Part shown: positions 11,802 through 40,968 of the stretch, in pieces | Numbering within the stretch: position 1 is the stretch's first letter | How the letters are laid out: each line of letters starts with the position of its first letter | Sequence record: PP047754 | Direction: 5' to 3' (one strand) | Source of the DNA: Escherichia phage KEP4 | DNA: 64,000 nt | Position numbers and translations under genes: made by a program | The notes under the pieces: generated by a model | The model's database searches: none | What the model was told of the DNA's origin: nothing | The model's input: only the letters and a program-made list of their open reading frames with translations

Positions 11802-12257
11802 ATGAGCGAAACAAAACTTGAAACGATGAAAACCGAAGATATAATGGCAGAATTGGAGCCTCTTATTTCGGTAAATCCTGAAGACATGAACTTAGACCAA
11901 ATGTCATTGAAAATTGGTCGTTCGTGGATGACTGTGCAACGCCATTATATTCGTGAAGGAAGATATCTGGAGTATCTAACTGGCAAATTCCGCCAAATAG
12001 ATCTCTATTTACGCCGATTTTATGCAGGGGAATTGCCGCCCAACGTTTATGTTGAACGCCCATTAAAAGTTCGACCCCTGAAATCTGATATAGATGTTTG
12101 GGTAAAAGCAGATGATGATTATATCGAATTGTCTAGCATGCTTCAAGAGCAGAAAGCCAAAGTCAAGTTTATCGAAAGTTGCTTAGATCGTTTGAACAAA
12201 CTCGGATATGAAGTGAAGAATGCTATTGATTGGCGAAAATATTTGGATGGGATGTAA
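11802..12257 (+). CDS. hypothetical protein, 151 aa
   Basis: ORF with ATG start. Confidence 0.5.
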   Translation: MSETKLETMKTEDIMAELEPLISVNPEDMNLDQMSLKIGRSWMTVQRHYIREGRYLEYLTGKFRQIDLYLRRFYAGELPPNVYVERPLKVRPLKSDIDVWVKADDDYIELSSMLQEQKAKVKFIESCLDRLNKLGYEVKNAIDWRKYLDGM

Positions 12258-13003
12258 TGGTTTCTCTACAGGCTTTGCGCAAACTTAATGACTTTGAAAA
12301 TCGTCATCATACATTTCAGCAATATTCCTTGCCGTTTAAGGAACTGACTTGCGTAACTACCGAAAATGGTCGTCACTATGTTTCCCCCACTGGAGTCAAA
12401 CTAACTTCAGTGACGACCATGTTAGGGCGTACTGGTGACCACACATGGTTAGAAGCCTGGCGGGACAAGTTGGGGCATGAAGCTGCTGATATAGAAACAC
12501 ATCGTTGCGCAGACCGTGGGGAAAAACTTCATTTGGCTTGTGAGTTGTATCTCAAAAACAGACCAATGAAGGAAGTTCTGGAAGCTGCAGGGGAATACGT
12601 GTTTATGTTCAAACAGGTTTTCCCCTACCTTAACAAAATGAGCAAGATATATGCACAAGAGATTCCATTATATAGCGAAGTCCTGGGTCTTGCTGGTCGT
12701 GTTGACCTCATCGGGGTTTACGAAGGAATTCCAAGCATAATCGATTTCAAAACATCTAACACCCTAAAAACTCGAAGCATGATAGAAGATTATAGTATTC
12801 AATTGTGTCTATACTCAGTCATGTTTCAACAAATGTTTAATGTCAAGATAGAGCGTTTAATCAATATTATATCCAACGAAAATGCCCTTGTTCCCACCAT
12901 AATCGAATTCGATCGCAAAGACGTTATTTCTAAAATGTTTGACCGTGTCCGTCTGTATCACAAAATGGACAAAGAACAGAAAGGAATCTGGGCGGATCGC
13001 TAA
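12257..13003 (+). CDS. PD-(D/E)XK family nuclease candidate (RecB/Cas4-like), 248 aa
   Basis: GRVDLIGVY ... IIDFKTS (D...E/D.K) and QLCLY motifs; start ATG overlaps previous stop (TAATG). Confidence 0.45.
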   Translation: MVSLQALRKLNDFENRHHTFQQYSLPFKELTCVTTENGRHYVSPTGVKLTSVTTMLGRTGDHTWLEAWRDKLGHEAADIETHRCADRGEKLHLACELYLKNRPMKEVLEAAGEYVFMFKQVFPYLNKMSKIYAQEIPLYSEVLGLAGRVDLIGVYEGIPSIIDFKTSNTLKTRSMIEDYSIQLCLYSVMFQQMFNVKIERLINIISNENALVPTIIEFDRKDVISKMFDRVRLYHKMDKEQKGIWADR

Positions 13004-13032
13004 ATACTCCATAATATTGGGGGAAATTAGTG

Positions 13033-14532
13033 ATGTCTGAGATCCAAATAGTCAAAGTGAACGAAGTTAGAATGCGGATCCTCGCCGAGGATTATATCCG
13101 TGAAGAACTCAACGATTACTTCAAATTTGAAGATCCTAATTTCCAACCGAATCCGTTCAGTAAATGGGACGGCGTAGTGCGGCTGTTCACAAAGAGTTCT
13201 GGGCTTATCGACATCGGCCTGTTATTTGAGGTGTTCAAATTCTGTAAGATGAACGGTTACACCATCAAATTAGATCCGACCTTAAAATATATTCAAGATA
13301 TTCCGGATGAAGAAATTCATGCGTTCATCGATACATTGAATGCGGTGTACCGAGACGAAAACAAACAATATCAAAAAGCGATTGTCCGTGATTATCAATT
13401 TGATTCTGTTGCCACAGCAATACGCCAAAGCAGATGTGTCCTCGAAGCTGCCACGAGTGCTGGCAAATCCTTTATTTTGTACATCATGGCGCGTTACTAC
13501 AGGCAACGCAGAGATGCCCTCGAAAGTAATCTGAGGACGTTAATTGTTGTACCATCCATTCATTTGGTGACTCAGTTGTATGACAACTTCGAAGAATATA
13601 GCCACGGGACAGAATGGAAGCCATTGATGAACGTCCAGACAATATACGAAGGGGCAACGAAAGAGATTTTCAAACCCATAGTTATTTCAACTTGGCAAGG
13701 TATCCAGAACCAACCCAAAGAGTGGTTCCATCAATTTGGAGATATCGTCGTTGACGAAGTACATACATCAAAATCAGATAAATTGTCTTACATCTTGAAC
13801 AACTGTATTAACGCTGATCAACGTTTGGGAGTAACCGGAACCCTGGCGAATACAAAGGTCGCAGGGTTACAAGTCGTTGCTCACTTTGGCGCATATCATA
13901 AAATTATTACAGCGCGCGATTTAATCGATCTAGGATATGCGGCAGACATCAATGTTAATATGATTGAAGTCATACATCCTATGGCAGACTGTATTGAAAT
14001 GCACGGTGCTGAGTATCAAAAGGAAATAGAATTCCTCATTGCTAACGAACGCCGAAATGAATTGATAGCTCGAATGGCTCTATCTTTGAAAGGGAACGTG
14101 GCAGTCATGTTCGAACGTATCGATGCACACATGATGTTGGTTTATGAAATGCTATCGGCAGTCAAGAAAAACGTATTCGTCATCAACGGGGAAGTCAAGA
14201 CAGAAGTTCGTAAACAGATTCAGGCTGCTATGGAAGAAGGGGAAGATATAACACTGTTGGCATCATATGGTACTATGCAACAGGGCGTATCTATCAAAAA
14301 ACTCCATCATCTGATATTGGCCCATCCCAGCAAATCTTATATCCGTGTTATACAGACATTGGGGCGTTTGATGCGTCAGCATTCCTCTAAGGATGTTGCG
14401 CGAATCTGGGACCTGGTAGACAACCTGCGTTACAACGGTTCCTACAACCATGCTCTCAGGCATTCTCATGAGAGATATAAATTTTATCTTATGGAGCGCC
14501 ACCCTGTTAAAATGAAAAAAGTGGCGCTCTAA
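13033..14532 (+). CDS. uvsW: UvsW-like SF2 DNA/RNA helicase
   Basis: 499 aa; Walker A LEAATSAGKS, DEVH box (VVDEVHT); T4 UvsW size; lies after the capsid region as in T4. Confidence 0.75.
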   Translation: MSEIQIVKVNEVRMRILAEDYIREELNDYFKFEDPNFQPNPFSKWDGVVRLFTKSSGLIDIGLLFEVFKFCKMNGYTIKLDPTLKYIQDIPDEEIHAFIDTLNAVYRDENKQYQKAIVRDYQFDSVATAIRQSRCVLEAATSAGKSFILYIMARYYRQRRDALESNLRTLIVVPSIHLVTQLYDNFEEYSHGTEWKPLMNVQTIYEGATKEIFKPIVISTWQGIQNQPKEWFHQFGDIVVDEVHTSKSDKLSYILNNCINADQRLGVTGTLANTKVAGLQVVAHFGAYHKIITARDLIDLGYAADINVNMIEVIHPMADCIEMHGAEYQKEIEFLIANERRNELIARMALSLKGNVAVMFERIDAHMMLVYEMLSAVKKNVFVINGEVKTEVRKQIQAAMEEGEDITLLASYGTMQQGVSIKKLHHLILAHPSKSYIRVIQTLGRLMRQHSSKDVARIWDLVDNLRYNGSYNHALRHSHERYKFYLMERHPVKMKKVAL

Positions 14533-18849: not shown

Positions 18850-20076
18850 ATGAAAGATAAACCGTGTGACATTCCTTATTGCGGTGTTCGGGAAGCTAAA
18901 ATTAAATCTGCACATCCCATGTTAAGCCCATTCCATAAACAACTCGCATACGAATGGATGAGCGAGCGCTATAAGATCCACGTGAGAAAGGACGTCCAGC
19001 GTCTTCCTGCTCCTTGGACGGATAATCCCATACTACGGCAGGTCAAGTTCTGTAACGTCCGGAGAGAGCACGACAGGCAGTCTCTTAACCTGATCAATAA
19101 TATCGTCAAGAACGACGCTCTGAGCATGGCCGACAAAATGTTCAACTGTGTTCTGTTCCGCATGTTCAATCTCTGGGATCCGATCAAGGTGGCGCTCGAG
19201 GGCGCTATGACGATTTCAGACTTTGCTAAAATCAACCTGGACGAGACCCGCGCCCGTCTTCAGAAGTTTGAATCTGAAGGTGGTAAGATCTTCACCAACG
19301 CATTCAACACAGGCGGTCTAAAACAATGTCTGGCGTTCCCCGAACTTGTTGTCAACCACAAGGAGCAGCGCTTCGGTGGCATGATGGTTAAGGTACACCG
19401 TGTTGGCCAGGGTGTCGTGGATGAATTGGATTACAAGGTCGCCAAGAAGCTGGTTGAAGAGAATCCTGGGGAGTACACCATTGAGGGTTGGGAGCCGTAC
19501 ATGCCAATGCGTGTCATCCGCTCTTTGAAGGCATTCGTCAACAAGTACCCCGATTACTTCAATGATCTTTTACGTCTTGACTCTCCGCTGAAAGTTTACC
19601 AGCGCATGTATGATGACATTGAAGGGCTTGGGCCATTCCTGGCATATCAGATCTGGGTGGACTTCACATACATCCCTGAGTATCCATTCAGTGAGAATCA
19701 TTTCACTATTGCTGGTCCAGGTTGCCGTGCGGGTATTGACCTGATGTTCCTGGATAAGGACGGCATGACTCATGAAGAATGCATATTCTGGGTTCGTGAT
19801 CATCAGTATCAATTGTTTGCTCAGTATGGTTATGTCCAAGAGCAGTTCTGGTCAGCCGAAGCGCCGGAAGATCAGTGCATGAACGTCATGCAGCTGGAGA
19901 ACATGTTCTGTGAATTGAGCAAGTACACCCGCTGTGTTGAGGCTATCGAGAGAGGGGAAAAGCCACGCGGCAAGGTCGGTTATGATGGAGGCGGGAGATA
20001 CAAAAATCGATGCGATGAAATTGTCCTCAATCGCGGATCGGTCAATTTATTAGATCGTTTGAAGAAACCTGAATAA
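18850..20076 (+). CDS. hypothetical protein, 408 aa, with helix-hairpin-helix-like motif; candidate DNA base-modification enzyme
   Basis: GAGAGGA RBS; DIEGLGPFLAYQIWVDF fits an hxGhGxxxA HhH signature as in DNA-glycosylase-like folds; no P-loop. Confidence 0.3.
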   Translation: MKDKPCDIPYCGVREAKIKSAHPMLSPFHKQLAYEWMSERYKIHVRKDVQRLPAPWTDNPILRQVKFCNVRREHDRQSLNLINNIVKNDALSMADKMFNCVLFRMFNLWDPIKVALEGAMTISDFAKINLDETRARLQKFESEGGKIFTNAFNTGGLKQCLAFPELVVNHKEQRFGGMMVKVHRVGQGVVDELDYKVAKKLVEENPGEYTIEGWEPYMPMRVIRSLKAFVNKYPDYFNDLLRLDSPLKVYQRMYDDIEGLGPFLAYQIWVDFTYIPEYPFSENHFTIAGPGCRAGIDLMFLDKDGMTHEECIFWVRDHQYQLFAQYGYVQEQFWSAEAPEDQCMNVMQLENMFCELSKYTRCVEAIERGEKPRGKVGYDGGGRYKNRCDEIVLNRGSVNLLDRLKKPE

Positions 20077-20189: not shown

Positions 20190-22205
20190 ATGGCAGAATT
20201 CAAACCCTTCGCAACGGCAGTTAATAACAACGTGCTGGCGATGTCCGCAACTGGTCTGTTCATGACCAATATCGATAAAGATGCTCTTTGGGATCTGTAT
20301 CTGGCATCTTTCCCTGCTGGTACCAACCCGCTCTACCGTGAGCGTACTGAGCACGACTGCACCTGCTGTAAACAATTCATCCGTAACATCGGCGGTGTGG
20401 TCACCATCGACTCCGACCTGAACGTAATTTCTATCTGGGACAACATTGATCTGGGTAATGAATATGACGTGGTGGCTGCGGCTCTTTCCGCGTATGTCAA
20501 ACAACACGCAATCGTCGATGTTTATTTTAACGATTCTGCCAAAGTCGGCCTGTCTCACAATCACGAAATGAAAGACGGCAATGTCCGCACCTACAACCAC
20601 TTCCACACCGACCTGCTGGGTAGCTATGTTCTGCGTCCGGACGCAATCGCTTCGAAAAAAGGTGAAATCCGCCAGGCTATTGAATTGTTTGAACGCGGTC
20701 TGCGTGAAATTACTCTGGAATCAGCTGAAATCGTTCTGGAACTGATTGACCAGAATTCTCTGTATCGCGGCGCAGAACACAAAGCAGCAGTGAAGGGATT
20801 TGTTGAAACCAAAAAGGCATATGAACAAATCCCCGAATCAGCCCGTTCTCTGTGGGCATGGCATACTGGATACCGTTCAAACAATCATGTTCCACACGGC
20901 ATCCGTAACACAGTTATCGGCACTCTGCTGACAGATATCAGCGAAGGCGTGGAACTGGAAAAGGCTGTTAAATCGTTTGAATCCAAAGTTGCTCCGGCGA
21001 ACTACAAACGTCCGACAGCGCTGGTTTCAAAATCCATGATCGAAAACGCTCAGAAAGAAGTTATTGCTCTGGGTTTGGAAGACTCACTGGCGCGTCGTTA
21101 TGCGGTTTATGATGATCTGACAATCAACAACGTTCTGTTCGCAGATCTGGCTGCTCAGAAAGCGATGGATCCGTTTGCTCAGCTGGCTGCCGAAGTGAAA
21201 ACTCCGACCAAGTCCCTGGAAAAAGTTGAAGAGATCAGCGTTGATGATTTCCTGAGCAATGTTCTGCCAAAAGCGCATTCAATGGAAGTGCTTGTAGAGA
21301 ATTCTCATACTAGCAACCTGATGTCCCTGGTTGCTCCGGCGAACCCAGATGCGCCTAACCTGTTCAAGTGGAACAACGGTTTCTCCTGGTCTTACAACGG
21401 TGAAGTGACCGATTCCATTAAAGAACGTGTAAAGGCTGCTGGCGGTAAAGTTGACGGGTATCTGCGCGTTTCCTTGGCGTGGCACAATAACGACGACCTC
21501 GATCTGCATATGTTCAACAACATGGAGCACGTTTACTTCCGCGATCGCCGCTCTATGACAGGTGCCCATCTGGATATCGATATGAACGGTATGGATGGTA
21601 TTGATCCAAACCGCGCTCCGGTGGAAAATATCATCTTTACAGATGAAAGCAAGCTGCGCGATGGTGAATACCGTTTCGAAATCCACAACTACAATCAACG
21701 TGAAAAAATCGACGAAGGGTTTGAAGTCGAAGTAGAATACAAAGGCGCAACGCATCGTTTCAGCCATCCTGGCCTGAAAGATCAGGGACGTATCACCGCA
21801 GTCATCTTGACTGTTAAAGACAAACAAGTTGTTGGCATTAAGTCCGAACTGGCTAATGTTGATAAGTCTAAAGAAGTTTGGGGTATCAAGACAGCGACCT
21901 TCCAGAAAGTACAGCTGGTCCTGAACTCACCAAACCATTGGGATGGCGAGCAGACAGGCAACAAGCACGTGTTCTTCATCCTGGAAGGTTGTGCTAATCC
22001 TGAAGGTACTCGTGGTTTCTACAACGAATATCTGAAGCCAGAACTGGATAAACATCGTAAGGTTTTTGAAATGTTGGGTAGTAAAATGAAAGTCCAGCCG
22101 AATGAAAACCAACTGTCCGGTCTGGGATTCTCGACGACGCAACGCAACCATGTGTTCGTCAAAGTGTCCGGCGCGTTTAACCGTACTGTAAAAGTCATTT
22201 TCTAA
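20190..22205 (+). CDS. hypothetical protein, 671 aa, highly-expressed-type codon usage
   Basis: Strong AGGAAG RBS and cassette-like upstream region; N-terminal Cys cluster HDCTCCKQF; no recognised catalytic motif. Confidence 0.5.
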   Translation: MAEFKPFATAVNNNVLAMSATGLFMTNIDKDALWDLYLASFPAGTNPLYRERTEHDCTCCKQFIRNIGGVVTIDSDLNVISIWDNIDLGNEYDVVAAALSAYVKQHAIVDVYFNDSAKVGLSHNHEMKDGNVRTYNHFHTDLLGSYVLRPDAIASKKGEIRQAIELFERGLREITLESAEIVLELIDQNSLYRGAEHKAAVKGFVETKKAYEQIPESARSLWAWHTGYRSNNHVPHGIRNTVIGTLLTDISEGVELEKAVKSFESKVAPANYKRPTALVSKSMIENAQKEVIALGLEDSLARRYAVYDDLTINNVLFADLAAQKAMDPFAQLAAEVKTPTKSLEKVEEISVDDFLSNVLPKAHSMEVLVENSHTSNLMSLVAPANPDAPNLFKWNNGFSWSYNGEVTDSIKERVKAAGGKVDGYLRVSLAWHNNDDLDLHMFNNMEHVYFRDRRSMTGAHLDIDMNGMDGIDPNRAPVENIIFTDESKLRDGEYRFEIHNYNQREKIDEGFEVEVEYKGATHRFSHPGLKDQGRITAVILTVKDKQVVGIKSELANVDKSKEVWGIKTATFQKVQLVLNSPNHWDGEQTGNKHVFFILEGCANPEGTRGFYNEYLKPELDKHRKVFEMLGSKMKVQPNENQLSGLGFSTTQRNHVFVKVSGAFNRTVKVIF

Positions 22206-31903: not shown

Positions 31904-32208
31904 TTTCAAAATATATTGTAAAGCCTGGGGATACTCTGTCCAGGATCGCTCTAAAATTATATGGTGATGCCCAACAGTATATCAAATTAGCCAGATTCAA
32001 CAATATCCAAAACCCAGGCCATATCACGGTTGGTCAGATTATTTGTTTACCCACACCTGTCGAAGACAAAGAACACATTATGATTCCGGTTCAACCGACT
32101 CAGAAGTGTTTGGATGCGATAGCTGGTTTATTTCGGCCAGGTTTTTGTGATGGAACTATTGAACGTCACATTTATCAAGCGATTGTGGAAAACGCAGGTG
32201 TAAAATGA
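31900..32208 (+). CDS. LysM domain protein, 102 aa
   Basis: YIVKPGDTLSRIALKLYGDAQQYIKLARFNNIQNPGHITVGQIICLP matches the LysM peptidoglycan-binding motif. Confidence 0.6.
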   Translation: MISKYIVKPGDTLSRIALKLYGDAQQYIKLARFNNIQNPGHITVGQIICLPTPVEDKEHIMIPVQPTQKCLDAIAGLFRPGFCDGTIERHIYQAIVENAGVK

Positions 32209-32414
32209 TCGGATTAATTCGTTACCTGTTCATATTCGTAATTTCAACATTCATTTTATTTTTCTTTTTCAAATACTTGAAAGAGACTAAAATCTACCGA
32301 AGTAAACGTTGGCGCAAACGGGTGAGGGTAACTTTCCTGCTGCTGATTTCTTCGGTTACAATAACCGCACTCACATTGGGTGCATATATCTACATTTTTG
32401 AAGGGGTACATTGA
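32205..32414 (+). CDS. small membrane protein with two predicted TM helices, 69 aa
   Basis: Hydrophobic segments LFIFVISTFILFFFF and VTFLLLISSVTITALTLGAYIYIF separated by a basic loop; start and stop overlap both neighbours. Confidence 0.45.
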   Translation: MIGLIRYLFIFVISTFILFFFFKYLKETKIYRSKRWRKRVRVTFLLLISSVTITALTLGAYIYIFEGVH

Positions 32415-33205
32415 TGTTCAAGAAATTGGTGTTCGGTGCAATTATGGTTCTGGCTGCAAGTCTACTTTCTGGTTGTGGCGGCGTTATCGATGAAGGTAAT
32501 GTCGGCGTTCGCACCCAATGGGGTGAAGTAGACATGAACCCTGTAACAGCGGGGATCTACACCAGCTTTGTTTCAAGCGTGGATGTTTACACGACCAAAG
32601 AAGCCGTTGTGAGTCTGACTAAAATGACGCCAAAGGCCAAAGACAACCTGACTCTGGAAGACTTGGATGTGGATGTTTATTACACACCCAATGTCGCAAA
32701 GGTTCCGTGGTTCCATACCAAATTTGCTGGCCAGAGCGCCGAACTCGATGATGGCACGATAGCGGTGGGTTTCAATCTAGTTAAAACTGCTGCAGCATCT
32801 TCTTCGATGGACGCCGTTTCTTCTCTTGATTCTATGACAATTCACACCCAACGTGCTGAATTAGAGAAGATGATTAAAGACCGCACTCAGCAACAATTAG
32901 AGACTGCTGCGCCTGGCATGTTCACAATCACACGCGTGTTGGTCAAAAAGGCGCTGACGGATCCTTCTATTGAGCAGTCTATCCGTGATAATGTTATGGC
33001 GGACAAACGATTGGATACGGCAAGAAAGAACGTTGAAATTCGCGAGCAAGAAGCCCAAGCGAACCAGAAACTGACCACTTCGCTGACGCCTGAATATCTT
33101 CAACATGAATATAACATGGTATTACAATCATGTGCCAATAGTGGAAAATGTACTCTGATCGTTGACGGATCCGGCTCAGGTAAAATGCTGAACGTCGGCA
33201 AATAA
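32414..33205 (+). CDS. SPFH/band-7 (HflK/C-, stomatin-like) lipoprotein, 263 aa
   Basis: Lipoprotein signal MFKKLVFGAIMVLAASLLSGC (lipobox LSGC), then GNVGVRTQWGEV SPFH-type N-terminal motif and coiled-coil region. Confidence 0.5.
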   Translation: MFKKLVFGAIMVLAASLLSGCGGVIDEGNVGVRTQWGEVDMNPVTAGIYTSFVSSVDVYTTKEAVVSLTKMTPKAKDNLTLEDLDVDVYYTPNVAKVPWFHTKFAGQSAELDDGTIAVGFNLVKTAAASSSMDAVSSLDSMTIHTQRAELEKMIKDRTQQQLETAAPGMFTITRVLVKKALTDPSIEQSIRDNVMADKRLDTARKNVEIREQEAQANQKLTTSLTPEYLQHEYNMVLQSCANSGKCTLIVDGSGSGKMLNVGK

Positions 33206-33288
33206 ACGCTTTATTCAATAATATTTGTTAGGTAAGCTGTAGTCCTCTTGTAGTGAAACATTGTAAACAACTAACTGGAGTAATCCGA

Positions 33289-33567
33289 ATGAACCGTACT
33301 GATTTTATCGCTCACATCGCCCAGACTCAGGGTATGACCAAAGGCGAAGCAGAGAAGATCGTGGCATCCTTTATCAACGGCGTAAAAACTGCAGTCGCAG
33401 CTGGCCAATCTGTCCAATTCGTCGGCTTTGGCGCGTTTGAAGTTAAACATCAGGAAGCGCGCACTGGCCGCAACCCGCTGAACGGGCAAGCGATTCAGAT
33501 CGAAGCGAAAAATGTTGTTAAATTCAAAGTCGGTGAAGGTCTGAAAGCTGCTGCCAACGGCCAGTAA
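33289..33567 (+). CDS. HU/IHF-family histone-like DNA-binding protein
   Basis: 92 aa; VQFVGFGAFEVKHQEARTGRNPLNGQAIQIEAKNVVKFKVG matches the HU signature GFGxF...R.GRNP.TG. Confidence 0.85.
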   Translation: MNRTDFIAHIAQTQGMTKGEAEKIVASFINGVKTAVAAGQSVQFVGFGAFEVKHQEARTGRNPLNGQAIQIEAKNVVKFKVGEGLKAAANGQ

Positions 33568-33615
33568 TCACATCCAGAGCGGTCGTGCCTAGCACAGCGT
33601 GTTAGGCTAAAAGAG

Positions 33616-33645
33616 AAAGCCGAGGTTAATGCCTCGGCTTTTTCG
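33616..33645 (+). terminator. rho-independent terminator after HU gene
   Basis: aagccgagg-ttaat-gcctcggctt hairpin followed by TTTT. Confidence 0.65.
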
Positions 33646-33692
33646 TTGTTGGAATTCGGGTAAACTATAACAGAACCCAAAGGAGGAACAAC

Positions 33693-35414
33693 GTGACAGC
33701 ATTTAATCAATACCGAAAGGCGATTGACGCCATAGGCCGTAAGGTTCCTATAGAAGAAATACAAAGCCTTGCCAAAAACGAATTTCCATATGACAAGGCG
33801 AACCAAGGCCAGATGGAATGTATCGTCGAAGCCGTTGATGCCTTGGTCAACAAAAAGGTCAAACACGTGATCATTGAAGCCCCAACTGGCGTGGGGAAAT
33901 CTTTGATTGGGACAACAATTCATAAAGTGATTCGCCATTTGGTTTTACAGGCCGATCCTTATGGGCAATTCCGCACGTCTATCAGTACGCCTACCAAAGG
34001 TCTACAAGATCAGTATGCTGCTGAAAAGGCGGTAGCGATAGACATCCTGAAAGGCAAGAAGAACTATCGTTGCCACGTACACCCAGATGTGTATTACAAC
34101 GCTGTGCAATGCCGTATAGCATGCCGCGACGGGCATTGTAGCAAACGCCGTTGTCCTTATGTACAGGCGCGTAATTTGTGGACGGATATTTCATCATTGC
34201 GTTGTACTAATGCTGCCATGATGATCGAAATGTGTACAACCATCTGCATGAAGCCCGAAAACCGTTCCGATATGCTGATCCTTGACGAGTGCCATAAAAT
34301 GCCCTCTACGCTCCTAGAGCACACGATCATGGAATACAATACAAAGGCCGTGGAGGGGCTGCGTTCTATCCCTGAGGGCAAGGAGATCGTCTCTACCATT
34401 GGTGATATCGTAGAACGTACCAAGGACTATGTCCTGGGCAAGTTATATTCTTTGTCTGGTGAACTACATTCAATGTTTGAAGACCTCCATCTCAAAGTAG
34501 AAAATTTGTTGGAAGTTCTTGAAGAATTGGTCGAAGATGATCGCTTGAGTGAAAGCCAAGTGATGAAACTCGCCGACATTATAGATGTCTTGCATAACTT
34601 GAGTGATTATTGTGGTATTATGTCACAAACCCAAGCAAGTACATTTATTGTGCAAGATAAGGGGGAAGATTTTATCCGGTTTAAACCTGTTATGCCTTCT
34701 GATGTAAGCGAATTCGGGTTATTCCGAAAAGCCGATTATCACGTTCATATGTCAGCAACGATCTGTGGTATAGATTCGTATGCTCGTTCATTGGGTATTC
34801 GACAGGGGGATTATCATTCCATTCAGATCGGCAATCCTATCCCAATTGAAAACAGAAAAGTCAACTATATGCCCATAGTGAAGATGACTAACAATATGGG
34901 CGACTATGAAATGAAAAGGTTGACGGAATATATTGATGAAATAATCGCGTTCCACCCAGGTCAGTCCGGCATTATCCATACAGTGAGTTATGATCGCGCC
35001 TTGGCAATACAAAAATTCAGCAAATATCAGAATTTTATCCATGTTCCGCGTACCCGAAAGGCGTTGATGGATATTATGGAAAATGCTTTTAGAACAAAGT
35101 CCCCATGCGTCATTGCCAGTCCGGCTATGGAAGAAGGTTATGATTTCAAAGGGGATTACAGCCGTTTCCAAATACTGATCAAAGTCCCTTATGATTATCT
35201 GGGCGATCCACTGATAGCACATATCAATTCAGTGGATCCGTCGGCATATTTCCGCAATGCAGTACTGCGCATTGTTCAAATGTGTGGACGTTCGGTCAGG
35301 GGTGTTGATGACTGGGCTGCGACATACATCATTGATTCATCCTTTGAATCTCTTATGATGCGCAACCCAGAATTCTTCCCAACCTGGTTCACCGATGCAG
35401 TGTTTGAGGTTTAA
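33693..35414 (+). CDS. DinG/Rad3(XPD)-family Fe-S helicase, 573 aa
   Basis: Walker A APTGVGKS, DECH box LILDECHKM, four-Cys cluster CHVHPDVYYNAVQCRIACRDGHCSKRRCPY; GTG start 7 nt after AGGAGG. Confidence 0.65.
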   Translation: MTAFNQYRKAIDAIGRKVPIEEIQSLAKNEFPYDKANQGQMECIVEAVDALVNKKVKHVIIEAPTGVGKSLIGTTIHKVIRHLVLQADPYGQFRTSISTPTKGLQDQYAAEKAVAIDILKGKKNYRCHVHPDVYYNAVQCRIACRDGHCSKRRCPYVQARNLWTDISSLRCTNAAMMIEMCTTICMKPENRSDMLILDECHKMPSTLLEHTIMEYNTKAVEGLRSIPEGKEIVSTIGDIVERTKDYVLGKLYSLSGELHSMFEDLHLKVENLLEVLEELVEDDRLSESQVMKLADIIDVLHNLSDYCGIMSQTQASTFIVQDKGEDFIRFKPVMPSDVSEFGLFRKADYHVHMSATICGIDSYARSLGIRQGDYHSIQIGNPIPIENRKVNYMPIVKMTNNMGDYEMKRLTEYIDEIIAFHPGQSGIIHTVSYDRALAIQKFSKYQNFIHVPRTRKALMDIMENAFRTKSPCVIASPAMEEGYDFKGDYSRFQILIKVPYDYLGDPLIAHINSVDPSAYFRNAVLRIVQMCGRSVRGVDDWAATYIIDSSFESLMMRNPEFFPTWFTDAVFEV

Positions 35415-36178
35415 TAACCCGCAATAAACGATAAATGGCACTTGATATTTGGTTCAAGTGTCGTTATCGTGATAATCATATTGTCCACATCTTGGCTGAA
35501 AGATATATTTGCGATCGGTTTGGTTTGAACATGATTATACAGGCTATAAATCAGATCTTCACCACGATAACCGATTTTGCCATCAGTGTCCTGCCAATGA
35601 CCGAGGGTAGACTCTCGAGCGTGTACTCGGAATTCGACCATATGAAACAATGCTTTTGGGATTGTCTTCAGTATGCTGGTCCCAACAACCGGAATATCAA
35701 TAGAAGAGTCGTTGGAGTTTCCTTCATAAACAGATTCCCAACCAAATGTTGGATCCCCACCAGCTACAGGAGTTCTTTTCCAGTATTGGAATTCTGGGTT
35801 TCCGGCGGAGTTCTTTTGTAGGAGTATTACTTCACCGCCTTCAAAATTGGAAGTGTCTATATCGTCCCTTGCTAATAAATCTGCCGGAGAACCAATAAAT
35901 TTCCAAGTTTCGCGATCTAAAATAGACTTATAATGATCGGTGAATACGTTACTGTCGTCAGCTGAATTAATTGCGTCTTTAAGACCTTGACCTGTGACCA
36001 TCTCATTGAGTTTGATCCACATGTTCTTAACAGCTGACGCAGCTGCGACCTGACCTTCAGTCCCACCCGCCGTGTAGTCATATACGATGTCCAGCTTTTG
36101 GATGGAGTCGTTTATGGACAAGAGCAAACGCTCAATTTCTGGGGCGGTCAGACTGAAACGATATGCGCGTTCTGACAT
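35411..36178 (-). CDS. hypothetical protein, 255 aa, reverse strand
   Basis: ATG start with GAGGAAC RBS on the - strand; convergent with the helicase gene, 4-nt overlap. Confidence 0.5.
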   Translation of the reverse strand: MSERAYRFSLTAPEIERLLLSINDSIQKLDIVYDYTAGGTEGQVAAASAVKNMWIKLNEMVTGQGLKDAINSADDSNVFTDHYKSILDRETWKFIGSPADLLARDDIDTSNFEGGEVILLQKNSAGNPEFQYWKRTPVAGGDPTFGWESVYEGNSNDSSIDIPVVGTSILKTIPKALFHMVEFRVHARESTLGHWQDTDGKIGYRGEDLIYSLYNHVQTKPIANISFSQDVDNMIITITTLEPNIKCHLSFIAGY

Positions 36179-36220
36179 GATTCGTTCCTCATCGATAAAA
36201 CCAGTTTGGGATACTTATAC

Positions 36221-36748
36221 ATGATTGAAATATACACTGACGGGGCATCATCCCCTCAGAAGACACAAGCCGCAGGTTGGGCATTTGCTATCAGTCCAAT
36301 CACTGGAGAGCAATGGAAAGTGTTTTATGGGTATTTACCCCCACCGTCAACGAATAATATCGCTGAGTTGCTTGGGGTTATAAACGCCTTGAAGATTCTA
36401 TGGAAATTCTCTAATTGCGGGGAACGCTGTATTCCCCCAGCCCGTATTATATCCGACAGCCAATATGTTATCAATAGTGTTTTGGAGTGGCGTAGAAAAT
36501 GGGAATATGAAGGGATGCCGCCTAAGAACACAGAACTCCTACTCGAATTGTTCAATTATTATGACAAAGTTTGTTCAATTTGTGAACTTGAATTAAAATG
36601 GGTGAAAGGTCATGCGGGGAATATCGGCAACGAAATCGCGGATCAGTGGAGCGTCAGAGCCAAAGAAAATAGCTCGATGGTTCTTGAAAATAATCGTTTC
36701 CTGGTCAGAAAGGTTGTTGGTTCTTTCAATGAATTCATTGGTATTTGA
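36221..36748 (+). CDS. ribonuclease HI (type 1 RNase H)
   Basis: IYTDGAS, NNIAELLGVINAL, KWVKGHAGNIGNEIADQ match the RNase HI DEDD catalytic motifs. Confidence 0.8.
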   Translation: MIEIYTDGASSPQKTQAAGWAFAISPITGEQWKVFYGYLPPPSTNNIAELLGVINALKILWKFSNCGERCIPPARIISDSQYVINSVLEWRRKWEYEGMPPKNTELLLELFNYYDKVCSICELELKWVKGHAGNIGNEIADQWSVRAKENSSMVLENNRFLVRKVVGSFNEFIGI

Positions 36749-36759
36749 GGATTATCACG

Positions 36760-37530
36760 ATGGGTATGAATTTTGTAGACAGGGGTGATAACGTCACCAA
36801 ATATTTCACTGACGAAGATAACGATCGAGTTGTGGGGATATTGCGTGATTGGATCCCTGCTCGTAAAAAGGCATTAGCCGAAGGAACACCCCTACCAAGA
36901 ATCCCCAATTATGTGGCCATGAATGTTCAGATGATAATCAAGAATATGAGTATGCGCTACAACTACCGTGATTATCCATATCGTGAAGACATGGTGAGTG
37001 AAGCGGTTGTGAACATCCTTCGTTACCTTCACACCTTTGATGTTAGCCATATCGGCAAGAAAGGAAAGATCAACTTCTTCTCTTGGGTGACTATGTGTGC
37101 CGATCGCTCATTCGCCAAGAAACTCACGAGTGAAGAAGAACACAACTACATTAAATTGCGTTCCTTTGAAGAAGCAGGTGGGTTCGCAGCTTTATCGGAT
37201 GACCCAGACTTCCAACAACAAACCTTCGTTGATAGCACTGGGATAACGATGGACTTTCGTGAACGCATCGGTAATTTCGAAAATAAGAAAGAAGCCCAGC
37301 GTGAAAAGGAACGCCAAAAGCAAACGGCTATCAAAGAAGAGGAAAAGAATAAGAAAATCCCTCGCGGTATACTTCAATGTCTTACGAAGAGTGAAAATAC
37401 CATTACTGCTGACGCCGAAGATAATTCAGATAATGACTTCGGCTCTACTCAATTTAGTCTTGAAGATATAATGGACAGTCCCACATTGTTAGCCGAATCA
37501 GTTGGAGAAAAGAATAATGGCGATTGCTAA
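36760..37530 (+). CDS. late-transcription sigma factor gp55
   Basis: NYVAMNVQMIIKNMSMRYNYRDYPYREDMVSEAVVNILRYLHTFD parallels the T4 gp55 N-terminal region; adjacent to gp47/gp46 as in T4. Confidence 0.6.
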   Translation: MGMNFVDRGDNVTKYFTDEDNDRVVGILRDWIPARKKALAEGTPLPRIPNYVAMNVQMIIKNMSMRYNYRDYPYREDMVSEAVVNILRYLHTFDVSHIGKKGKINFFSWVTMCADRSFAKKLTSEEEHNYIKLRSFEEAGGFAALSDDPDFQQQTFVDSTGITMDFRERIGNFENKKEAQREKERQKQTAIKEEEKNKKIPRGILQCLTKSENTITADAEDNSDNDFGSTQFSLEDIMDSPTLLAESVGEKNNGDC

Positions 37531-38632
37531 AATTGGCGATTTACACATCGGGAGCCGCAATGGTTCCCGTTACGTTCGTGAATTCATAAAGAATTATCTC
37601 ATCAACTATTTTATTCCCGAATTGGTAGATGCAGACATTAAAGAAGTTTGGCAATTCGGCGACACATTTGATGTTCGTAAATTTATGTACGGGCGCGACA
37701 AAGATTGGTTGAAAGATGAACTGACTCCAGCCCTGAGAAAGGCGGGTATCAAATGGAATGGCATCGTTGGAAACCATGATATCACCTTAGAAGAATCTAA
37801 CCGTATCAACTGGCCATCCTATCTGAATGAATTAGCGCCAGACGTCTATCATTATTACAGTGAACCCACTGAAGTTTCGATTGAAGGCGAAAAGGTATTG
37901 CTTCTCCCATGGATCAATAAAGAGAATTATGATGCATCTGTTAAAGCGATACAAGATACAGACGCCAAGTACTGTTTTGCGCATCTGGAGTTGGCAGGGT
38001 TCAAAATGTACCAGTCCTCTGTTTGTGATAAAGGTCAGATCGACGTGGCGCTCCTTTCCAAGTTCGAACGCGTGGATACCGGACATTTCCATACCCGTTC
38101 GATGGAAGGTAACATTCAGTATATTGGGACTCCTTATCACCTTACCTGGGAAGACCATAAAGACGGGACGAACCGAGGATTCTATGTAGACGACATGAAA
38201 GGCGGGGAATTGTTTATTCCCAACAACGAGCAACAAACGTTGTTCCGATTCATCGAATACGACTACACCCAAATGTCTTCCGACACCGAAGGAAACTGGA
38301 TTGACCCAGATTGGCTAAACAATGGTTTGGGTATTGAAGGGCAAATCGTTAAAGTGATTGTACAGAACCGCGATAATGCCAAGCATTATGAAAAGTTCTG
38401 CGACGCGCTGAAGCGCTGTAAATGCATCGATTACAACTTTATAGATCGGACTATCACAGTCTCGTCTGAGAAGGTAGAAGTCACTGAAGAGATGGTGGCG
38501 ACTGATGCTGTGGAAGTCCTGAAGAAAGATATCCGCGCCGCCAATAATATCCAGCGCCCTGAAAATGTTTGCAAATTAGCAGAACAATTCTATAATGCTG
38601 CCCAACAACGCCTGAACACATTGGATGCATAA
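37517..38632 (+). CDS. recombination endonuclease subunit gp47 (Mre11/SbcD-like)
   Basis: N-terminal IGDLHIG phosphoesterase motif, GNHD; start overlaps the gp55 3' end. Confidence 0.8.
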   Translation: MAIAKIGDLHIGSRNGSRYVREFIKNYLINYFIPELVDADIKEVWQFGDTFDVRKFMYGRDKDWLKDELTPALRKAGIKWNGIVGNHDITLEESNRINWPSYLNELAPDVYHYYSEPTEVSIEGEKVLLLPWINKENYDASVKAIQDTDAKYCFAHLELAGFKMYQSSVCDKGQIDVALLSKFERVDTGHFHTRSMEGNIQYIGTPYHLTWEDHKDGTNRGFYVDDMKGGELFIPNNEQQTLFRFIEYDYTQMSSDTEGNWIDPDWLNNGLGIEGQIVKVIVQNRDNAKHYEKFCDALKRCKCIDYNFIDRTITVSSEKVEVTEEMVATDAVEVLKKDIRAANNIQRPENVCKLAEQFYNAAQQRLNTLDA

Positions 38633-38634
38633 TA

Positions 38635-40968
38635 ATGAGAAACGTAGATCTATTATCAAAATTTGGTTCGCTGTTGAAAGAAGCGGACGCTCCTGTTATT
38701 GTTGAAGCACCATTTGAAATCCGTGGGGATATTACTCACAAACTGACTTTCCATCGTGGTCGCGCTAAGAACTTTCGTTCTATCGGTAATGAATTCATGG
38801 AAATTGATTACCAACGCAATTCGGCAACCTTGGTTACATCCGATGACAATGGCGCTGGTAAATCCACCATGCTTGTCTGGCTGCTGTTCTTCGTTCTGTA
38901 CAACGACACGTACAGCAAGAAAGAGAAGAAAGCCGGATTGGTTAACTCTCAAAACAAAAAAGAATGCGTGGGTGAAGTTGAGTTCTCAACTCGCGGTAGT
39001 GAATGGAAAGTCCGTCGCGGTATCAAACCAGATTTTGTAGAAGTTTATCAGATGGTGGAAGGAGAGTGGAAGCAAGTCGTGAACGATGCGGCCAAAGCTG
39101 ATATGAACAAGTACATCGTGAATCTCATCGGTGTGGACCAGAAGATGTTCGAGAACTCTTTGGTTCTGGGTAAGGAGAAGTTTATTCCTTTCACAGAGAT
39201 GTATACTGCTGACCGCCGCGCCATGGTTGAAACAATTTGGGACTTGGGTTTCTTCAGCCTGATGAATGAGGATGTTAAAGCATCTATCAAGGCGGTAACG
39301 AACGAACTCACGACGGTCACCAATGATTACGCCTTTCATGATGTGAATCTAAAAGGCCAGCAAGCGCAGTTGGAACAGATCAATAATTCCAATGCGATGA
39401 TTCAGCAACAATCTGCGGATATCCTTGTCCAAGAGAAGGAACGTCTGAATAGCCTGAATTCAGATATCGGCGCAGTGCAGGAACAACTGACAGAGTCCCG
39501 TGCTCAAGACTCTAAATTGGAATCAGAATTATCAGAAGTCCGTAATCGTCTGAACGCTGAAATGAAGGTGGATATCGATGCCATCAATGACGAGTATTTT
39601 GCCAAAATTCAAGCGGTTCAGGATGAGGCTGATACCAAGGCTGAAGACTATGAACGTATCGAGGTGTCTGATGGCGAACGTTCATTACAAGAAATTCGGG
39701 AGAGAATGGCGGTAGTCGCGGAACGTAAAAATGATCTGGTCAGCCAACGGAATGCTAACCTGGATGAACTGAACAAAGCATTAGCGCGGCGTCAGCAGGG
39801 TGAGAACTTCCGTATCAAATTCGTAACAGAAATGGAAGGACATGAATCTGCCATCAAACGTTTCCACGATATGGGCACTTGCCCTACGTGTACGCAATTA
39901 GTGTCGGACGATACCAAATCACGCATTGAAAGTCAATATTATCCACAAATCAGTGAACTGACTGACAAGATTCTTCAGGTTGACACAGCCCTAGAAGAAG
40001 TTAATTCCCTGATTGAGAATTACAATGTCAGAGATTCAGAATTATCTTCTCAGATTTCGGTTATTGACAAAGAACTGGATGCTTTGCGCAATGAAATCCG
40101 AGAAGCGGAATCAGCGATCGCAGCTTTAAAACGCGACATCCAAGGATTCTATGATGTCGCTGCTGTTGAGAAAACATCTTTACAGCGGGAACAACAGTCC
40201 AAAATTAACGATATCCTCAAGGCCGTAGACACCCGTTATGAAGATATCACAACTTCTATTCGCCAAGCCCGTGAGCAGCTCTCTAAGAGTATCAACGACA
40301 CGGCTGATAAACTCACCAGCCTGAAATCACGCCGTGCCCCTCTGGAGGCATCCATTGCCGATTTAGAGCGTAAATTGGCGGTTAAGCCGACACCAACTGA
40401 CGCCCTGGAAGAAGAGATCGCTCGCATCACGGCGTTAATGGAAGATCTGAATGCGCGGCGCGTAGAGTTGGATGAGAAATTGCAAGACCTGAACCATCTT
40501 CTGTTCTTCCTAAAAGATGATCAGACCAAGGCTCGAATTATCAGCCTGTATTTGCCTTTCCTCAATAGTAAAATAAACGAGTATCTTGAAGCACTCAATA
40601 TGTTCTTGGATATTGCTGTTGATGATACATTTGAAATCACCATGAGCGCTGCAGGTCGTAAAGGGCAAAGCATCTTCTCATTATCTACTGGTCAGCGTAG
40701 TCGCCTGAACCTGGCTGTGACATTAGCTTTACGCGATGTTGCAAACCTCAAGGCGTCGGTGCAATGTAACCTGTTTGTGTTAGATGAAATCCTTGAGAAC
40801 ATGAGCGAGCGCGGCGTACAAGAATCGGTTGAGATGCTGAAGCATAAATTTGGCGGGAACAATCTGTTCGTTATCAGTCAACGCGAGCAGGAATTCCAAG
40901 AGTATTTCCAACACAACATCCGTTATGGTCTGCGTAATGGCATGACTGAAGTGATTAAGAAGGATTGA
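38635..40968 (+). CDS. recombination endonuclease subunit gp46 (Rad50/SbcC-like ATPase)
   Basis: Walker A NGAGKSTM, long coiled-coil, ABC signature LSTGQRSRL, Walker B LFVLDE. Confidence 0.85.
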   Translation: MRNVDLLSKFGSLLKEADAPVIVEAPFEIRGDITHKLTFHRGRAKNFRSIGNEFMEIDYQRNSATLVTSDDNGAGKSTMLVWLLFFVLYNDTYSKKEKKAGLVNSQNKKECVGEVEFSTRGSEWKVRRGIKPDFVEVYQMVEGEWKQVVNDAAKADMNKYIVNLIGVDQKMFENSLVLGKEKFIPFTEMYTADRRAMVETIWDLGFFSLMNEDVKASIKAVTNELTTVTNDYAFHDVNLKGQQAQLEQINNSNAMIQQQSADILVQEKERLNSLNSDIGAVQEQLTESRAQDSKLESELSEVRNRLNAEMKVDIDAINDEYFAKIQAVQDEADTKAEDYERIEVSDGERSLQEIRERMAVVAERKNDLVSQRNANLDELNKALARRQQGENFRIKFVTEMEGHESAIKRFHDMGTCPTCTQLVSDDTKSRIESQYYPQISELTDKILQVDTALEEVNSLIENYNVRDSELSSQISVIDKELDALRNEIREAESAIAALKRDIQGFYDVAAVEKTSLQREQQSKINDILKAVDTRYEDITTSIRQAREQLSKSINDTADKLTSLKSRRAPLEASIADLERKLAVKPTPTDALEEEIARITALMEDLNARRVELDEKLQDLNHLLFFLKDDQTKARIISLYLPFLNSKINEYLEALNMFLDIAVDDTFEITMSAAGRKGQSIFSLSTGQRSRLNLAVTLALRDVANLKASVQCNLFVLDEILENMSERGVQESVEMLKHKFGGNNLFVISQREQEFQEYFQHNIRYGLRNGMTEVIKKD

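What the first reader, a model, noticed from the sequence alone, without database searches (positions are those of the whole stretch)
33693..36748. Non-T4 nucleic-acid enzymes: Fe-S DinG/XPD-like helicase and RNase HI
T4 uses Dda/UvsW/gp41 helicases and a FEN-type rnh. This window instead carries a Rad3/XPD-family helicase with a four-Cys cluster between Walker A and the DECH box, and a type-1 RNase H with the full DEDD motif set, separated by a reverse-strand unknown. This implies a different lagging-strand or R-loop processing toolkit from T4.
Basis: partly seen in the sequence, partly recalled or inferred. Interest (0 to 1): 0.45.

Follow-up and report, generated by a model that had tools for sequence, protein, structure and literature searches.

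The report
Known Kuttervirus Fe-S helicase and RNase HI
The region carries two real but already annotated replication-accessory genes of a Vi01-like Salmonella phage, a DinG/XPD-type iron-sulfur helicase and an RNase HI, separated by a late baseplate-protein gene, so the finding is correct but ordinary.

Summary
The window is a Kuttervirus (Ackermannviridae), about 96% identical in DNA to Salmonella phage STML-13-1 and 94.5% to Vi01. All three ORFs exist as described.

- **Helicase (33693-35414, +):** a divergent DinG/XPD-family SF2 helicase. Walker A, DECH and motif VI are intact. Four cysteines (C127, C140, C149, C154) are invariant in 119 of 119 homologues. Its predicted structure matches E. 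coli DinG best (Foldseek E 3e-26).
- **RNase HI (36221-36748, +):** a type-1 RNase H with the catalytic D, E, D, H and D residues all conserved, 30% identical to E. coli RNase HI.
- **Reverse-strand gene (35411-36178, -):** a late virion protein whose fold resembles T4 gp9.

All three are annotated in more than 240 phage genomes; in Vi01 they are "ATP-dependent helicase" and "rnhA".

The lineage keeps gp41, gp59, gp61, UvsW, UvsX/Y, gp32, gp46/47 and ligase, so the helicase is an addition, not a replacement. I detected no FEN-type rnh and no Dda in the Vi01 genome. RNase HI for the FEN enzyme, and possibly the Fe-S helicase for Dda, are therefore plausible but untested swaps. Neither gene looks recently taken from the host. 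Interest is low.

The parts
33693..35414 (+). DinG/XPD-family SF2 DNA helicase (573 aa), orthologue of Vi01_106c 'ATP-dependent helicase'
   Evidence: ORF. phrog_2488 'DNA helicase' 2.3e-265. Pfam Helicase_C_2 6.9e-12. NCBIfam DinG 2.6e-16 and YoaA 1.5e-14, both far below the equivalog cut-offs. AF2 model pLDDT 89.6. Foldseek PDB top hits are DinG 6fws/6fwr at E 3e-26 and TM 0.63-0.66, followed by XPD and CasDinG.
33879..33902 (+). Walker A / motif I, APTGVGKS (aa 63-70)
   Evidence: G66, G68 and K69 are invariant in 119/119 homologues.
34071..34154 (+). Putative 4Fe-4S ligand segment C127-X12-C140-X8-C149-X4-C154
   Evidence: All four Cys are 119/119 invariant, while C144 in the same segment is variable. 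C127, C149 and C154 align with DinG C120, C199 and C205 in the profile alignment.
34284..34295 (+). Motif II, DECH (aa 198-201)
   Evidence: D, E and H are invariant in 119/119; C200 is present in 103/119.
35411..36178 (-). Late virion (baseplate, gp9-like) protein gene, 255 aa, orthologue of Vi01_105. Its stop codon overlaps the helicase stop (TTAA).
   Evidence: phrog_3833, with no Pfam match. LIMEstone1 ORF093 is annotated 'confirmed structural protein'. Only the C-terminal beta-sandwich of the AF2 model is confident. Best PDB match is T4 gp9 1qex, E 3.9e-08. BFVD hits are gp9/gp10 baseplate wedge proteins.
36212..36219 (-). T4-type late-promoter-like -10 element TATAAGTA for the reverse-strand gene, abutting the RNase HI start codon on the other strand
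   Evidence: The aligned position in LIMEstone1 reads TATAAATA and is annotated as a putative late promoter. Within this window alone the motif is not more frequent than chance.
36221..36748 (+).
   Evidence: Pfam RNase_H 5.6e-25. phrog_531 5.6e-61. PDB RNase HI from Shewanella and E. coli, 4e-11 to 1e-9. 30% identity to E. coli RNase HI. Catalytic D7, E49, D79, H131 and D141 are invariant.
33616..33641 (.). G+C-rich hairpin terminator between the HU-like gene and the helicase gene
   Evidence: A factor-independent terminator is annotated at the equivalent site in LIMEstone1.
13030..14532 (+). UvsW-type helicase (context: shows that the T4 helicase set is retained)
   Evidence: Pfam UvsW_N 5e-08, ResIII 1e-17 and Helicase_C.
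12230..13003 (+). PD-(D/E)XK (RecB/Cas4-like) exonuclease, orthologue of Vi01_138c (context: the only other candidate 5' nuclease, and not a FEN)
   Evidence: Pfam PDDEXK_1 6.9e-07. NCBIfam Cas4 1.7e-08, below cut-off. phrog_298 'exonuclease' 6e-86.
36745..40968 (+). Downstream context: gp55 late sigma factor (36745-37530), gp47 (37502-38632) and gp46 (38635-40968) recombination nuclease
   Evidence: phrog_234 1.2e-53. Vi01 annotation. SMC_N and SbcC motifs.

Best explanation
The region is part of the conserved early/middle replication-recombination gene block of a Kuttervirus (Ackermannviridae). The gene order is HU-like protein, terminator, helicase, late structural gene on the opposite strand, RNase HI, gp55, gp47, gp46.

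Shown:
- The helicase belongs to the DinG/XPD (Rad3) branch of SF2 helicases.
- It has intact ATPase motifs, four strictly conserved cysteines where that family binds a 4Fe-4S cluster, and a predicted HD1 / Fe-S / Arch / HD2 architecture.
- It forms a phage-specific subfamily and is not an orthologue of host DinG or YoaA.
- The RNase HI has a complete active site.

Inferred from what is known of the families:
- The helicase translocates 5'->3' on ssDNA, needs the host Fe-S assembly machinery, and acts as an accessory replication/recombination helicase. Likely tasks are clearing R-loops, D-loops or bound proteins ahead of or behind the gp41-driven fork, which is roughly the job of T4 Dda, a protein not detected in this lineage.
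- RNase HI degrades the RNA of gp61-made Okazaki primers and of R-loops. It stands in for the FEN-type T4 RNase H, which was also not detected.
- The last ribonucleotide or flap is removed by host Pol I or by another nuclease, and the gp30-type ligase seals the nick.

The gene between them is unrelated in function. It is a late baseplate protein transcribed from its own late promoter.
For: - Identity of the phage and existing annotation.
- Helicase family.
- Cys and motif conservation.
- RNase HI family and active site.
- T4 replisome retained: gp41, gp59, gp61, gp32, gp30, UvsX/Y, UvsW, gp44/62/45, gp46/47.
- No FEN rnh or Dda found: T4 rnh and dda gave no hit better than E 0.16 across the Vi01 genome and the window. 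Pfam and PHROG scans of about 20 unannotated Vi01 proteins of at least 212 aa gave no FEN or phrog_107 hit. The polymerase is family B.
- Not host-derived: the nearest helicase and RNase HI relatives are phage or metagenome contigs. Cellular RNase HI reaches at most 39% identity, E. coli RNase HI 30% and E. coli DinG about 15%.
- The helicase sits in replication modules in unrelated phages, next to ligase, primase and PolA in Rhizobium phage TM61.
Against: - No biochemical or genetic data were found for either protein in any Ackermannviridae phage. The polarity, the Fe-S cluster and the in vivo roles are all inferred.
- The absence of FEN and Dda rests on searches of limited sensitivity. The same single-sequence search failed to score the known gp59 homologue significantly, and small or very divergent proteins were not all scanned.
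- Absence was tested on Vi01, not on this phage's own complete genome, which is not available.
- Adjacency of the helicase and RNase HI is not conserved outside the lineage, so a joint function is not supported by gene context.
Confidence: 0.8

Rival explanations
1. The helicase is mainly a recombination/repair helicase working with the adjacent gp46/gp47, UvsX/UvsY and the RuvC-like resolvase in recombination-dependent replication. It would have no functional tie to RNase HI or to lagging-strand processing, and the two genes would be neighbours only by inherited synteny.
For: - gp55, gp47 and gp46 lie directly downstream.
- The helicase-RNase HI neighbourhood is lost in Aeromonas TSW001, Rhizobium TM61 and HRTV-8.
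- XPD, DinG and YoaA are repair helicases in cells (established knowledge).
Against: - In Rhizobium phage TM61 the helicase sits between primase, ligase and PolA, which is a replication context.
- UvsW already provides a recombination helicase.
- No data discriminate between the two roles.
Confidence: 0.3
2. A divergent FEN-type nuclease or a Dda-like helicase is present in the genome but was missed. The RNase HI and Fe-S helicase would then be extras rather than substitutes.
For: - Single-sequence searches missed the known gp59 homologue.
- Many Vi01 ORFs have no assigned function.
- T5-like phages have RNase HI-like hits of about 30% identity in this search; that T5 also encodes its own FEN (D15) is established knowledge, not tested here.
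Against: - T4 rnh belongs to phrog_107, and no tested Vi01 protein matched it or any Pfam FEN family.
- The Vi01 RefSeq annotation names only one RNase H.
- All unannotated proteins long enough to hold a FEN domain (at least 212 aa) were scanned.
Confidence: 0.15
3. One or both enzymes serve host takeover or counter-defence rather than phage DNA replication. Examples would be destroying host R-loop-primed replication or evading hybrid-sensing defences.
For: No direct evidence. RNase HI genes are scattered across many unrelated virulent phages (1338 records). A defence helicase (Hna) appears among the distant fold matches.
Against: - The location is inside the replication/recombination block, with conserved synteny.
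- The catalytic sites are intact and housekeeping-like.
- A PADLOC search was not run, and nothing in the context suggests a defence or anti-defence island.
Confidence: 0.05

Closest known systems
E. coli DinG (PDB 6fwr/6fws), and YoaA
   Same: SF2 helicase with motifs I, II (DExH) and VI. Cys ligands lie between motif Ia and II, and three of them align directly with DinG C120, C199 and C205. It has the Helicase_C_2 C-terminal domain. DinG is the best sequence-profile hit (4.8e-18) and the best structural hit (E 3e-26, TM 0.63-0.66).
   Different: Only about 15% identity. It is 573 aa against 716 aa. The Fe-S segment is compact: 28 residues span all four Cys, against 86 in DinG (C120 to C205). 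The second ligand is offset from DinG C194. NCBIfam scores (59 and 54 bits) are far below the equivalog cut-offs (598 and 680). It forms a phage-only clade.
Archaeal/eukaryotic XPD (Rad3), e.g. Thermoplasma acidophilum XPD (4a15, 2vsf)
   Same: The same four-domain fold class (Foldseek E 5e-24 to 2e-19). Homologues in haloarchaeal viruses are annotated 'Rad3-related DNA helicase'.
   Different: About 14% identity. No TFIIH-type partners. Bacterial DinG is closer by both sequence and structure.
E. coli RNase HI (1rnh/2rn2) and Shewanella RNase HI (2e4l)
   Same: Full-length alignment with D10, E48, D70, H124 and D134 all conserved, and Pfam RNase_H well above its cut-off.
   Different: 30% identity. 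There is an 8-residue Cys-containing insertion after helix A, a basic protrusion shortened by 6 residues, and a C-terminal extension of about 25 residues. The score is below the NCBIfam equivalog cut-off (71 against 160 bits).
T4 RNase H (rnh; FEN / 5'-3' exonuclease family, phrog_107)
   Same: The presumed task: removing Okazaki-fragment RNA primers in a T4-type replisome.
   Different: Unrelated fold and chemistry. No homologue was detected in the window or in Vi01.
T4 Dda (SF1B 5'->3' accessory helicase)
   Same: The inferred role as a non-replicative 5'->3' accessory helicase. Dda was not detected in Vi01.
   Different: A different superfamily (SF1B against SF2 Fe-S). Functional equivalence is untested.
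T4 gp9 baseplate protein (1qex), for the reverse-strand gene
   Same: It is the best PDB fold match (E 3.9e-08). Size is similar (255 aa against 288 aa). The orthologue is a virion component in LIMEstone1.
   Different: Only the C-terminal beta-sandwich is confidently modelled. TM is 0.35, identity 14%, and there is no sequence-level match.

Membership tests
DinG/XPD (Rad3) Fe-S SF2 helicases | SF2 motifs I (GxGKS/T), II (DExH) and VI (QxxGRxxR) | tested here: met
   APTGVGKS (aa 63-70), DECH (aa 198-201) and QMCGRSVRG (aa 529-537). The key residues are invariant in 119/119 homologues.
DinG/XPD (Rad3) Fe-S SF2 helicases | Four conserved Cys inserted in HD1 between motif Ia and motif II | tested here: met
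   C127, C140, C149 and C154 are invariant in 119/119 homologues while neighbouring Cys vary. C127, C149 and C154 align with DinG C120, C199 and C205.
DinG/XPD (Rad3) Fe-S SF2 helicases | Actual binding of a 4Fe-4S cluster | not testable with these tools
   Needs anaerobic purification with UV-vis/EPR spectroscopy and iron/sulfide quantification.
DinG/XPD (Rad3) Fe-S SF2 helicases | Four-domain architecture (HD1, Fe-S, Arch, HD2) and the Helicase_C_2 domain | tested here: met
   AF2 model pLDDT 89.6 and pTM 0.88. The top 40 or so PDB matches are all DinG, XPD, CasDinG or CHL1, aligned over the whole chain. Helicase_C_2 scores 46.2 bits against a cut-off of 25.3.
DinG/XPD (Rad3) Fe-S SF2 helicases | 5'->3' unwinding polarity | not testable with these tools
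   Inferred from family membership only.
E. coli DinG / YoaA orthologue groups (NCBIfam equivalogs) | Score at or above the curated equivalog cut-off | tested here: not met
   DinG NF008729 scores 59.2 bits against 598. YoaA NF053712 scores 53.6 bits against 680. The protein is a separate phage subfamily, phrog_2488.
RNase HI (type 1 RNase H, Pfam PF00075) | Profile match above the gathering score | tested here: met
   88.6 bits against 25.8, covering profile positions 4-139 of 141.
RNase HI (type 1 RNase H, Pfam PF00075) | Catalytic D-E-D-D carboxylates plus the His of the flexible loop | tested here: met
   D7, E49, D79 and D141 plus H131 correspond to E. coli D10, E48, D70, D134 and H124, and are invariant in 63/63 sequences.
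RNase HI (type 1 RNase H, Pfam PF00075) | Basic protrusion (substrate-binding handle) of the E. coli type | tested here: inconclusive
   The W-RRKW segment is present, but the loop is 6 residues shorter and less basic than in E. coli.
RNase HI (type 1 RNase H, Pfam PF00075) | Bacterial RNase HI equivalog (NCBIfam PRK00203) | tested here: not met
   71 bits against a cut-off of 160. It is a divergent phage clade.
T4 RNase H / FEN 5'-3' exonuclease (phrog_107) | Any ORF in the window or in the Vi01 genome similar to T4 rnh or to Pfam FEN domains | tested here: not met
   The best tblastn/phmmer E-values were 0.27-0.5. No FEN or phrog_107 hit appeared among the scanned proteins. Sensitivity is limited.
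T4 gp9-like baseplate protein (reverse-strand gene) | gp9 fold and presence in the virion | tested here: inconclusive
   1qex is the top PDB hit at E 3.9e-08, but TM is 0.35 and the N-terminal half of the model has low confidence. Virion presence comes only from the LIMEstone1 record note 'confirmed structural protein'.

The most novel reading that the evidence does not exclude
In Ackermannviridae the Fe-S DinG/XPD-like helicase and RNase HI are true non-orthologous replacements for T4 Dda and the FEN-type RNase H. Replication of these otherwise T4-like phages would then depend on host Fe-S cluster assembly (Isc/Suf) and on a host nuclease such as the Pol I 5'-exonuclease to finish primer removal. 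That would be an exploitable host dependency and a redox- or iron-sensitive step in phage replication.
Probability: 0.3. Interest if true: 0.4.

Novelty: already known. Interest (0 to 1): 0.13.

Why it matters
It matters little as a discovery. Both genes are conserved and already named in hundreds of Ackermannviridae genomes, and related copies occur in many other phage groups. The modest value added here:

1. There is explicit evidence that the helicase keeps a strictly conserved, unusually compact four-Cys motif and a DinG-like fold. It is therefore probably an Fe-S enzyme, which implies dependence on host Fe-S assembly.
2. The lineage keeps the T4 replisome but lacks a detectable FEN RNase H and Dda. 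This gives a clear, testable case of accessory-enzyme substitution within T4-related phages.
3. The "unknown" gene between them is a gp9-like late baseplate protein.

Kutterviruses are used for Salmonella and E. coli O157 biocontrol, so knowing their host dependencies has some practical interest.

Tried and rejected
- **Late-promoter statistics.** TATAAATA (3 matches against 1.6 expected) and TATAAGTA (1 against 1.0) are not enriched in the window. The late-promoter call rests on the aligned, annotated LIMEstone1 site instead.
- **Sigma-70 promoter and terminator scan of 33100-36900.** The counts are at chance level. Only the hairpin at 33616-33641 is credible.
- **Rfam on 32000-38000 and a tRNA scan of the window.** Nothing found.
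- **Single-sequence T4 rnh and dda searches.** Negative, but the controls showed limited sensitivity: gp32 and dexA were found, gp33 was marginal and gp59 was missed. I backed them up with Pfam/PHROG scans.
- **Vi01_138c 'exonuclease' as a hidden FEN.** Rejected. It is a PD-(D/E)XK RecB/Cas4-like nuclease, and its sequence shows no Cas4-style four-Cys cluster.
- **Recent host capture.** Rejected for both genes.
- **A conserved helicase + RNase HI operon across phage families.** Rejected.
- **Literature.** I found no functional study of either protein in Ackermannviridae. One search was badly specified and returned irrelevant papers.
- **Cys geometry in the AF2 model.** The model coordinates could not be inspected, so Cys-Cys distances were not checked.
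Full report
**What the window is.** A 4.6-kb query around the finding matches 267 phage records. The best are Salmonella phage STML-13-1 (96.0%) and Vi01, Det7 and related phages (about 94.5-95%), all Kuttervirus, Ackermannviridae. The window is collinear with Vi01 record positions of roughly 107.5 kb to 42.9 kb, reverse complement. In Vi01 the three genes are Vi01_106c "ATP-dependent helicase", Vi01_105 "conserved phage associated protein" and Vi01_104c "rnhA-ribonuclease H". They are flanked by an HU-like DNA-binding protein upstream and by gp55, gp47 and gp46 downstream. Other records name the helicase "dinG" (LPEK22), "ATP-dependent DNA helicase DinG" (Aeromonas TSW001) or "Rad3-related DNA helicase" (haloarchaeal viruses). 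The genes and their family labels are therefore already in the public record.

**Observation check: helicase.**
- The ORF 33693-35414 (+) encodes 573 aa. It starts at a GTG placed 6 nt after AAAGGAGG.
- It matches phrog_2488 "DNA helicase" end to end (2.3e-265) and Pfam Helicase_C_2, the C-terminal domain of the DinG/XPD group (46.2 bits against a cut-off of 25.3).
- It matches NCBIfam DinG and YoaA only weakly (59 and 54 bits against cut-offs of 598 and 680).
- Against solved structures, the single sequence finds E. coli DinG (1e-4). A 32-sequence profile finds DinG at 4.8e-18, followed by Rad3/XPD, CHL1 and FANCJ.
- An AlphaFold2 model built on that alignment is confident (pLDDT 89.6, pTM 0.88). 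Its top Foldseek PDB matches are E. coli DinG (E 3e-26, TM 0.63-0.66), Finegoldia DinG, Thermoplasma and human XPD, and CasDinG, aligned over the whole chain.
- In an alignment of 119 full-length homologues reaching down to about 32% identity, C127, C140, C149 and C154 are invariant, as are G66, G68, K69, D198, E199, H201, Q529, R533 and R536. Every other cysteine, including C144 inside the same segment, varies.
- In the profile alignment C127, C149 and C154 pair with the DinG cluster ligands C120, C199 and C205.
The motif CX12CX8CX4C spans 28 residues, against 86 in DinG (C120 to C205).
- Cluster binding and 5'->3' polarity are inferred from the family. They were not tested.

**Observation check: RNase HI.**
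- Pfam RNase_H scores 88.6 bits against a cut-off of 25.8, and phrog_531 "Rnase H" scores 5.6e-61.
- The best solved relatives are Shewanella and E. coli RNase HI (4e-11 to 1e-9). Identity to E. coli RNase HI is 30%.
- D7, E49, D79, H131, N137 and D141, numbered from the ATG at 36221, correspond to E. coli D10, E48, D70, H124, N130 and D134. All are invariant in 63 of 63 aligned sequences.
- The ATG at 36221 is the start annotated in Vi01 and LIMEstone1 and fits the 175-180 aa homologues.
- Lineage-specific features are an 8-residue insertion after helix A, a shortened basic protrusion and a C-terminal tail.

**The gene in between.**
- The ORF 35411-36178 (-) encodes 255 aa with no Pfam or NCBIfam match. 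It belongs to phrog_3833.
- The family is small and phage-restricted: 38 clusters at 90% identity, and 57 representatives by profile search.
- The LIMEstone1 record calls its orthologue "unknown structural protein; confirmed structural protein". That record also annotates a late-promoter -10 element between it and the RNase HI gene.
- At the aligned position LIMEstone1 reads TATAAATA, the T4 late consensus. This window and Vi01 read TATAAGTA, at 36212-36219 on the minus strand.
- The AF2 model is confident only for the C-terminal beta-sandwich. Its best PDB match is T4 gp9 (1qex, E 3.9e-08), and BFVD matches include gp9/gp10 baseplate wedge proteins.
- It is most likely a gp9-like late baseplate protein and has no functional connection to the two enzymes. 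Its stop codon overlaps the helicase stop within TTAA.

**Testing the interpretation ("non-T4 toolkit").**
- The lineage keeps most of the T4 replication and recombination set. This comprises gp43 (family B), gp44/62/45, gp41, the gp59 loader, gp61, gp32, gp30 ligase, UvsX, UvsY, gp46/47, dexA and a UvsW homologue. The UvsW homologue lies in this very window at 13030-14532. The Fe-S helicase therefore does not replace gp41 or UvsW.
- I took T4 rnh and dda from the T4 record. Neither gave a hit better than E 0.16 by tblastn or phmmer against all six-frame ORFs of the complete Vi01 genome plus the window.
- The controls show that this search is not very sensitive. gp32 and dexA were found, gp33 was marginal and gp59 was missed.
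- I therefore also scanned about 20 unannotated Vi01 proteins of at least 212 aa against Pfam and PHROGs. None matched a FEN family or phrog_107, the PHROG that holds T4 rnh.
- The one other annotated "exonuclease" (window 12230-13003) is a PD-(D/E)XK RecB/Cas4-like nuclease.
- In summary, FEN-type rnh and Dda are not detected, and RNase HI is the only phage-encoded RNA/DNA-hybrid nuclease I could find.
- rnh and dda are listed in the replication group of the T4 core-genome table, of which the paper says many Quasicore members are missing in some T4 relatives or dispensable in some hosts (PMC2993671). Their absence here is unsurprising.

**Origin.** Neither gene looks recently host-derived.
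- The closest helicase relatives are phage genomes or metagenomic contigs. By tblastn they include Ackermannviridae, Vibrio and Aeromonas phages, Rhizobium Kleczkowskaviridae, haloarchaeal Hafunaviridae and Lak megaphages.
- RNase HI relatives above 45% identity are all Ackermannviridae-like. Cellular RNase HI sequences reach at most 39%, and they are not enterobacterial.
- RNase HI-like genes occur in 1338 of 50,697 phage records, including T5-like, ICP1 and jumbo phages.

**Gene context.** The order helicase, reverse structural gene, RNase HI, gp55, gp47, gp46 is kept in Vibrio phage D533, whose helicase is 46% identical. In Aeromonas TSW001, Rhizobium TM61 and Halorubrum HRTV-8 the helicase sits in replication or early modules without a neighbouring RNase HI. 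Adjacency therefore reflects inherited synteny. It is not evidence for a two-gene functional unit.

**Most likely mechanism (inferred).**
- The helicase is an accessory 5'->3' Fe-S helicase of the replication/recombination apparatus. It may fill the Dda niche by removing R-loops, D-loops or protein blocks. From my own knowledge of the literature, E. coli DinG unwinds R-loops and D-loops.
- RNase HI removes primer and R-loop RNA. RNase HI leaves the junction ribonucleotide, so a second nuclease is needed before ligation. Candidates are host Pol I or perhaps the PD-(D/E)XK exonuclease.
- Also from my own knowledge, and not checked here: T4 rnh mutants survive by using host Pol I.

**Literature.** Papers on Vi01-like phages list "Ribonuclease" and "putative ATP-dependent helicase" among the conserved genes without further study (PMC10892097). 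I found no biochemical or genetic work on either protein in this family.

**Verdict.** The genes are already known and annotated, and they are ordinary for this phage family. The residual interest lies in the untested idea of accessory-enzyme substitution and an Fe-S dependency in a T4-related replisome.

Noticed in passing
window 35411-36219 (- strand) and 33616-33641: The late gp9-like gene converges on the helicase gene with overlapping stop codons (TTAA at 35411-35414) and no room for a terminator. A late transcript would therefore run antisense through the whole helicase ORF, possibly as far as the two-way hairpin at 33616-33641. Its late-promoter-like TATAAGTA abuts the RNase HI start codon on the other strand. 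This could be late antisense silencing of the early genes.
   Followed up: partly
window 12230-13003 (+), beside UvsY (11802-12257) and UvsW (13030-14532): A PD-(D/E)XK RecB/Cas4-like exonuclease (phrog_298), with D..D/ExK and QxxxY-like motifs visible in the translation but no Cas4-type four-Cys cluster, sits inside the uvsY-uvsW recombination cluster. It could be the 5' nuclease partner in recombination or primer removal.
   Followed up: partly
window 20190-22205 (+): A single 671-aa ORF here corresponds to two overlapping ORFs in Vi01: Vi01_129c (491 aa) and Vi01_128c (183 aa), at 92-96% identity. This is either a frameshift or annotation difference in Vi01, or a genuine fusion or split. 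The function is unknown and there is no Pfam hit.
   Followed up: partly
window ~18853-20076 (+); Vi01 loci L004:6020-6934 and L004:7477-8712: Thymidine-hypermodification genes are present. The window carries the orthologue of the 5-hmdU DNA kinase (Pfam HMUDK_hel 4e-83 on the Vi01 protein). Elsewhere in Vi01 there are HMUD2 and an amino-acid:DNA transferase. This fits the known modified DNA of ViI-like phages.
   Followed up: partly
window 33253-33567 (+) and 32411-33205 (+): An HU/IHF-family DNA-binding protein (Pfam Bac_DNA_binding 1.6e-29) lies directly upstream of the helicase. It is preceded by an SPFH/Band-7 lipoprotein (phrog_200). Both are conserved in Vi01.
   Followed up: no
window 36221-36748, RNase HI aa 60-72: The lineage-specific insertion WKFSNCGERCIPP contains two cysteines and is absent from E. 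coli RNase HI. There is also a C-terminal tail of about 25 residues. The significance of both is unknown.
   Followed up: no
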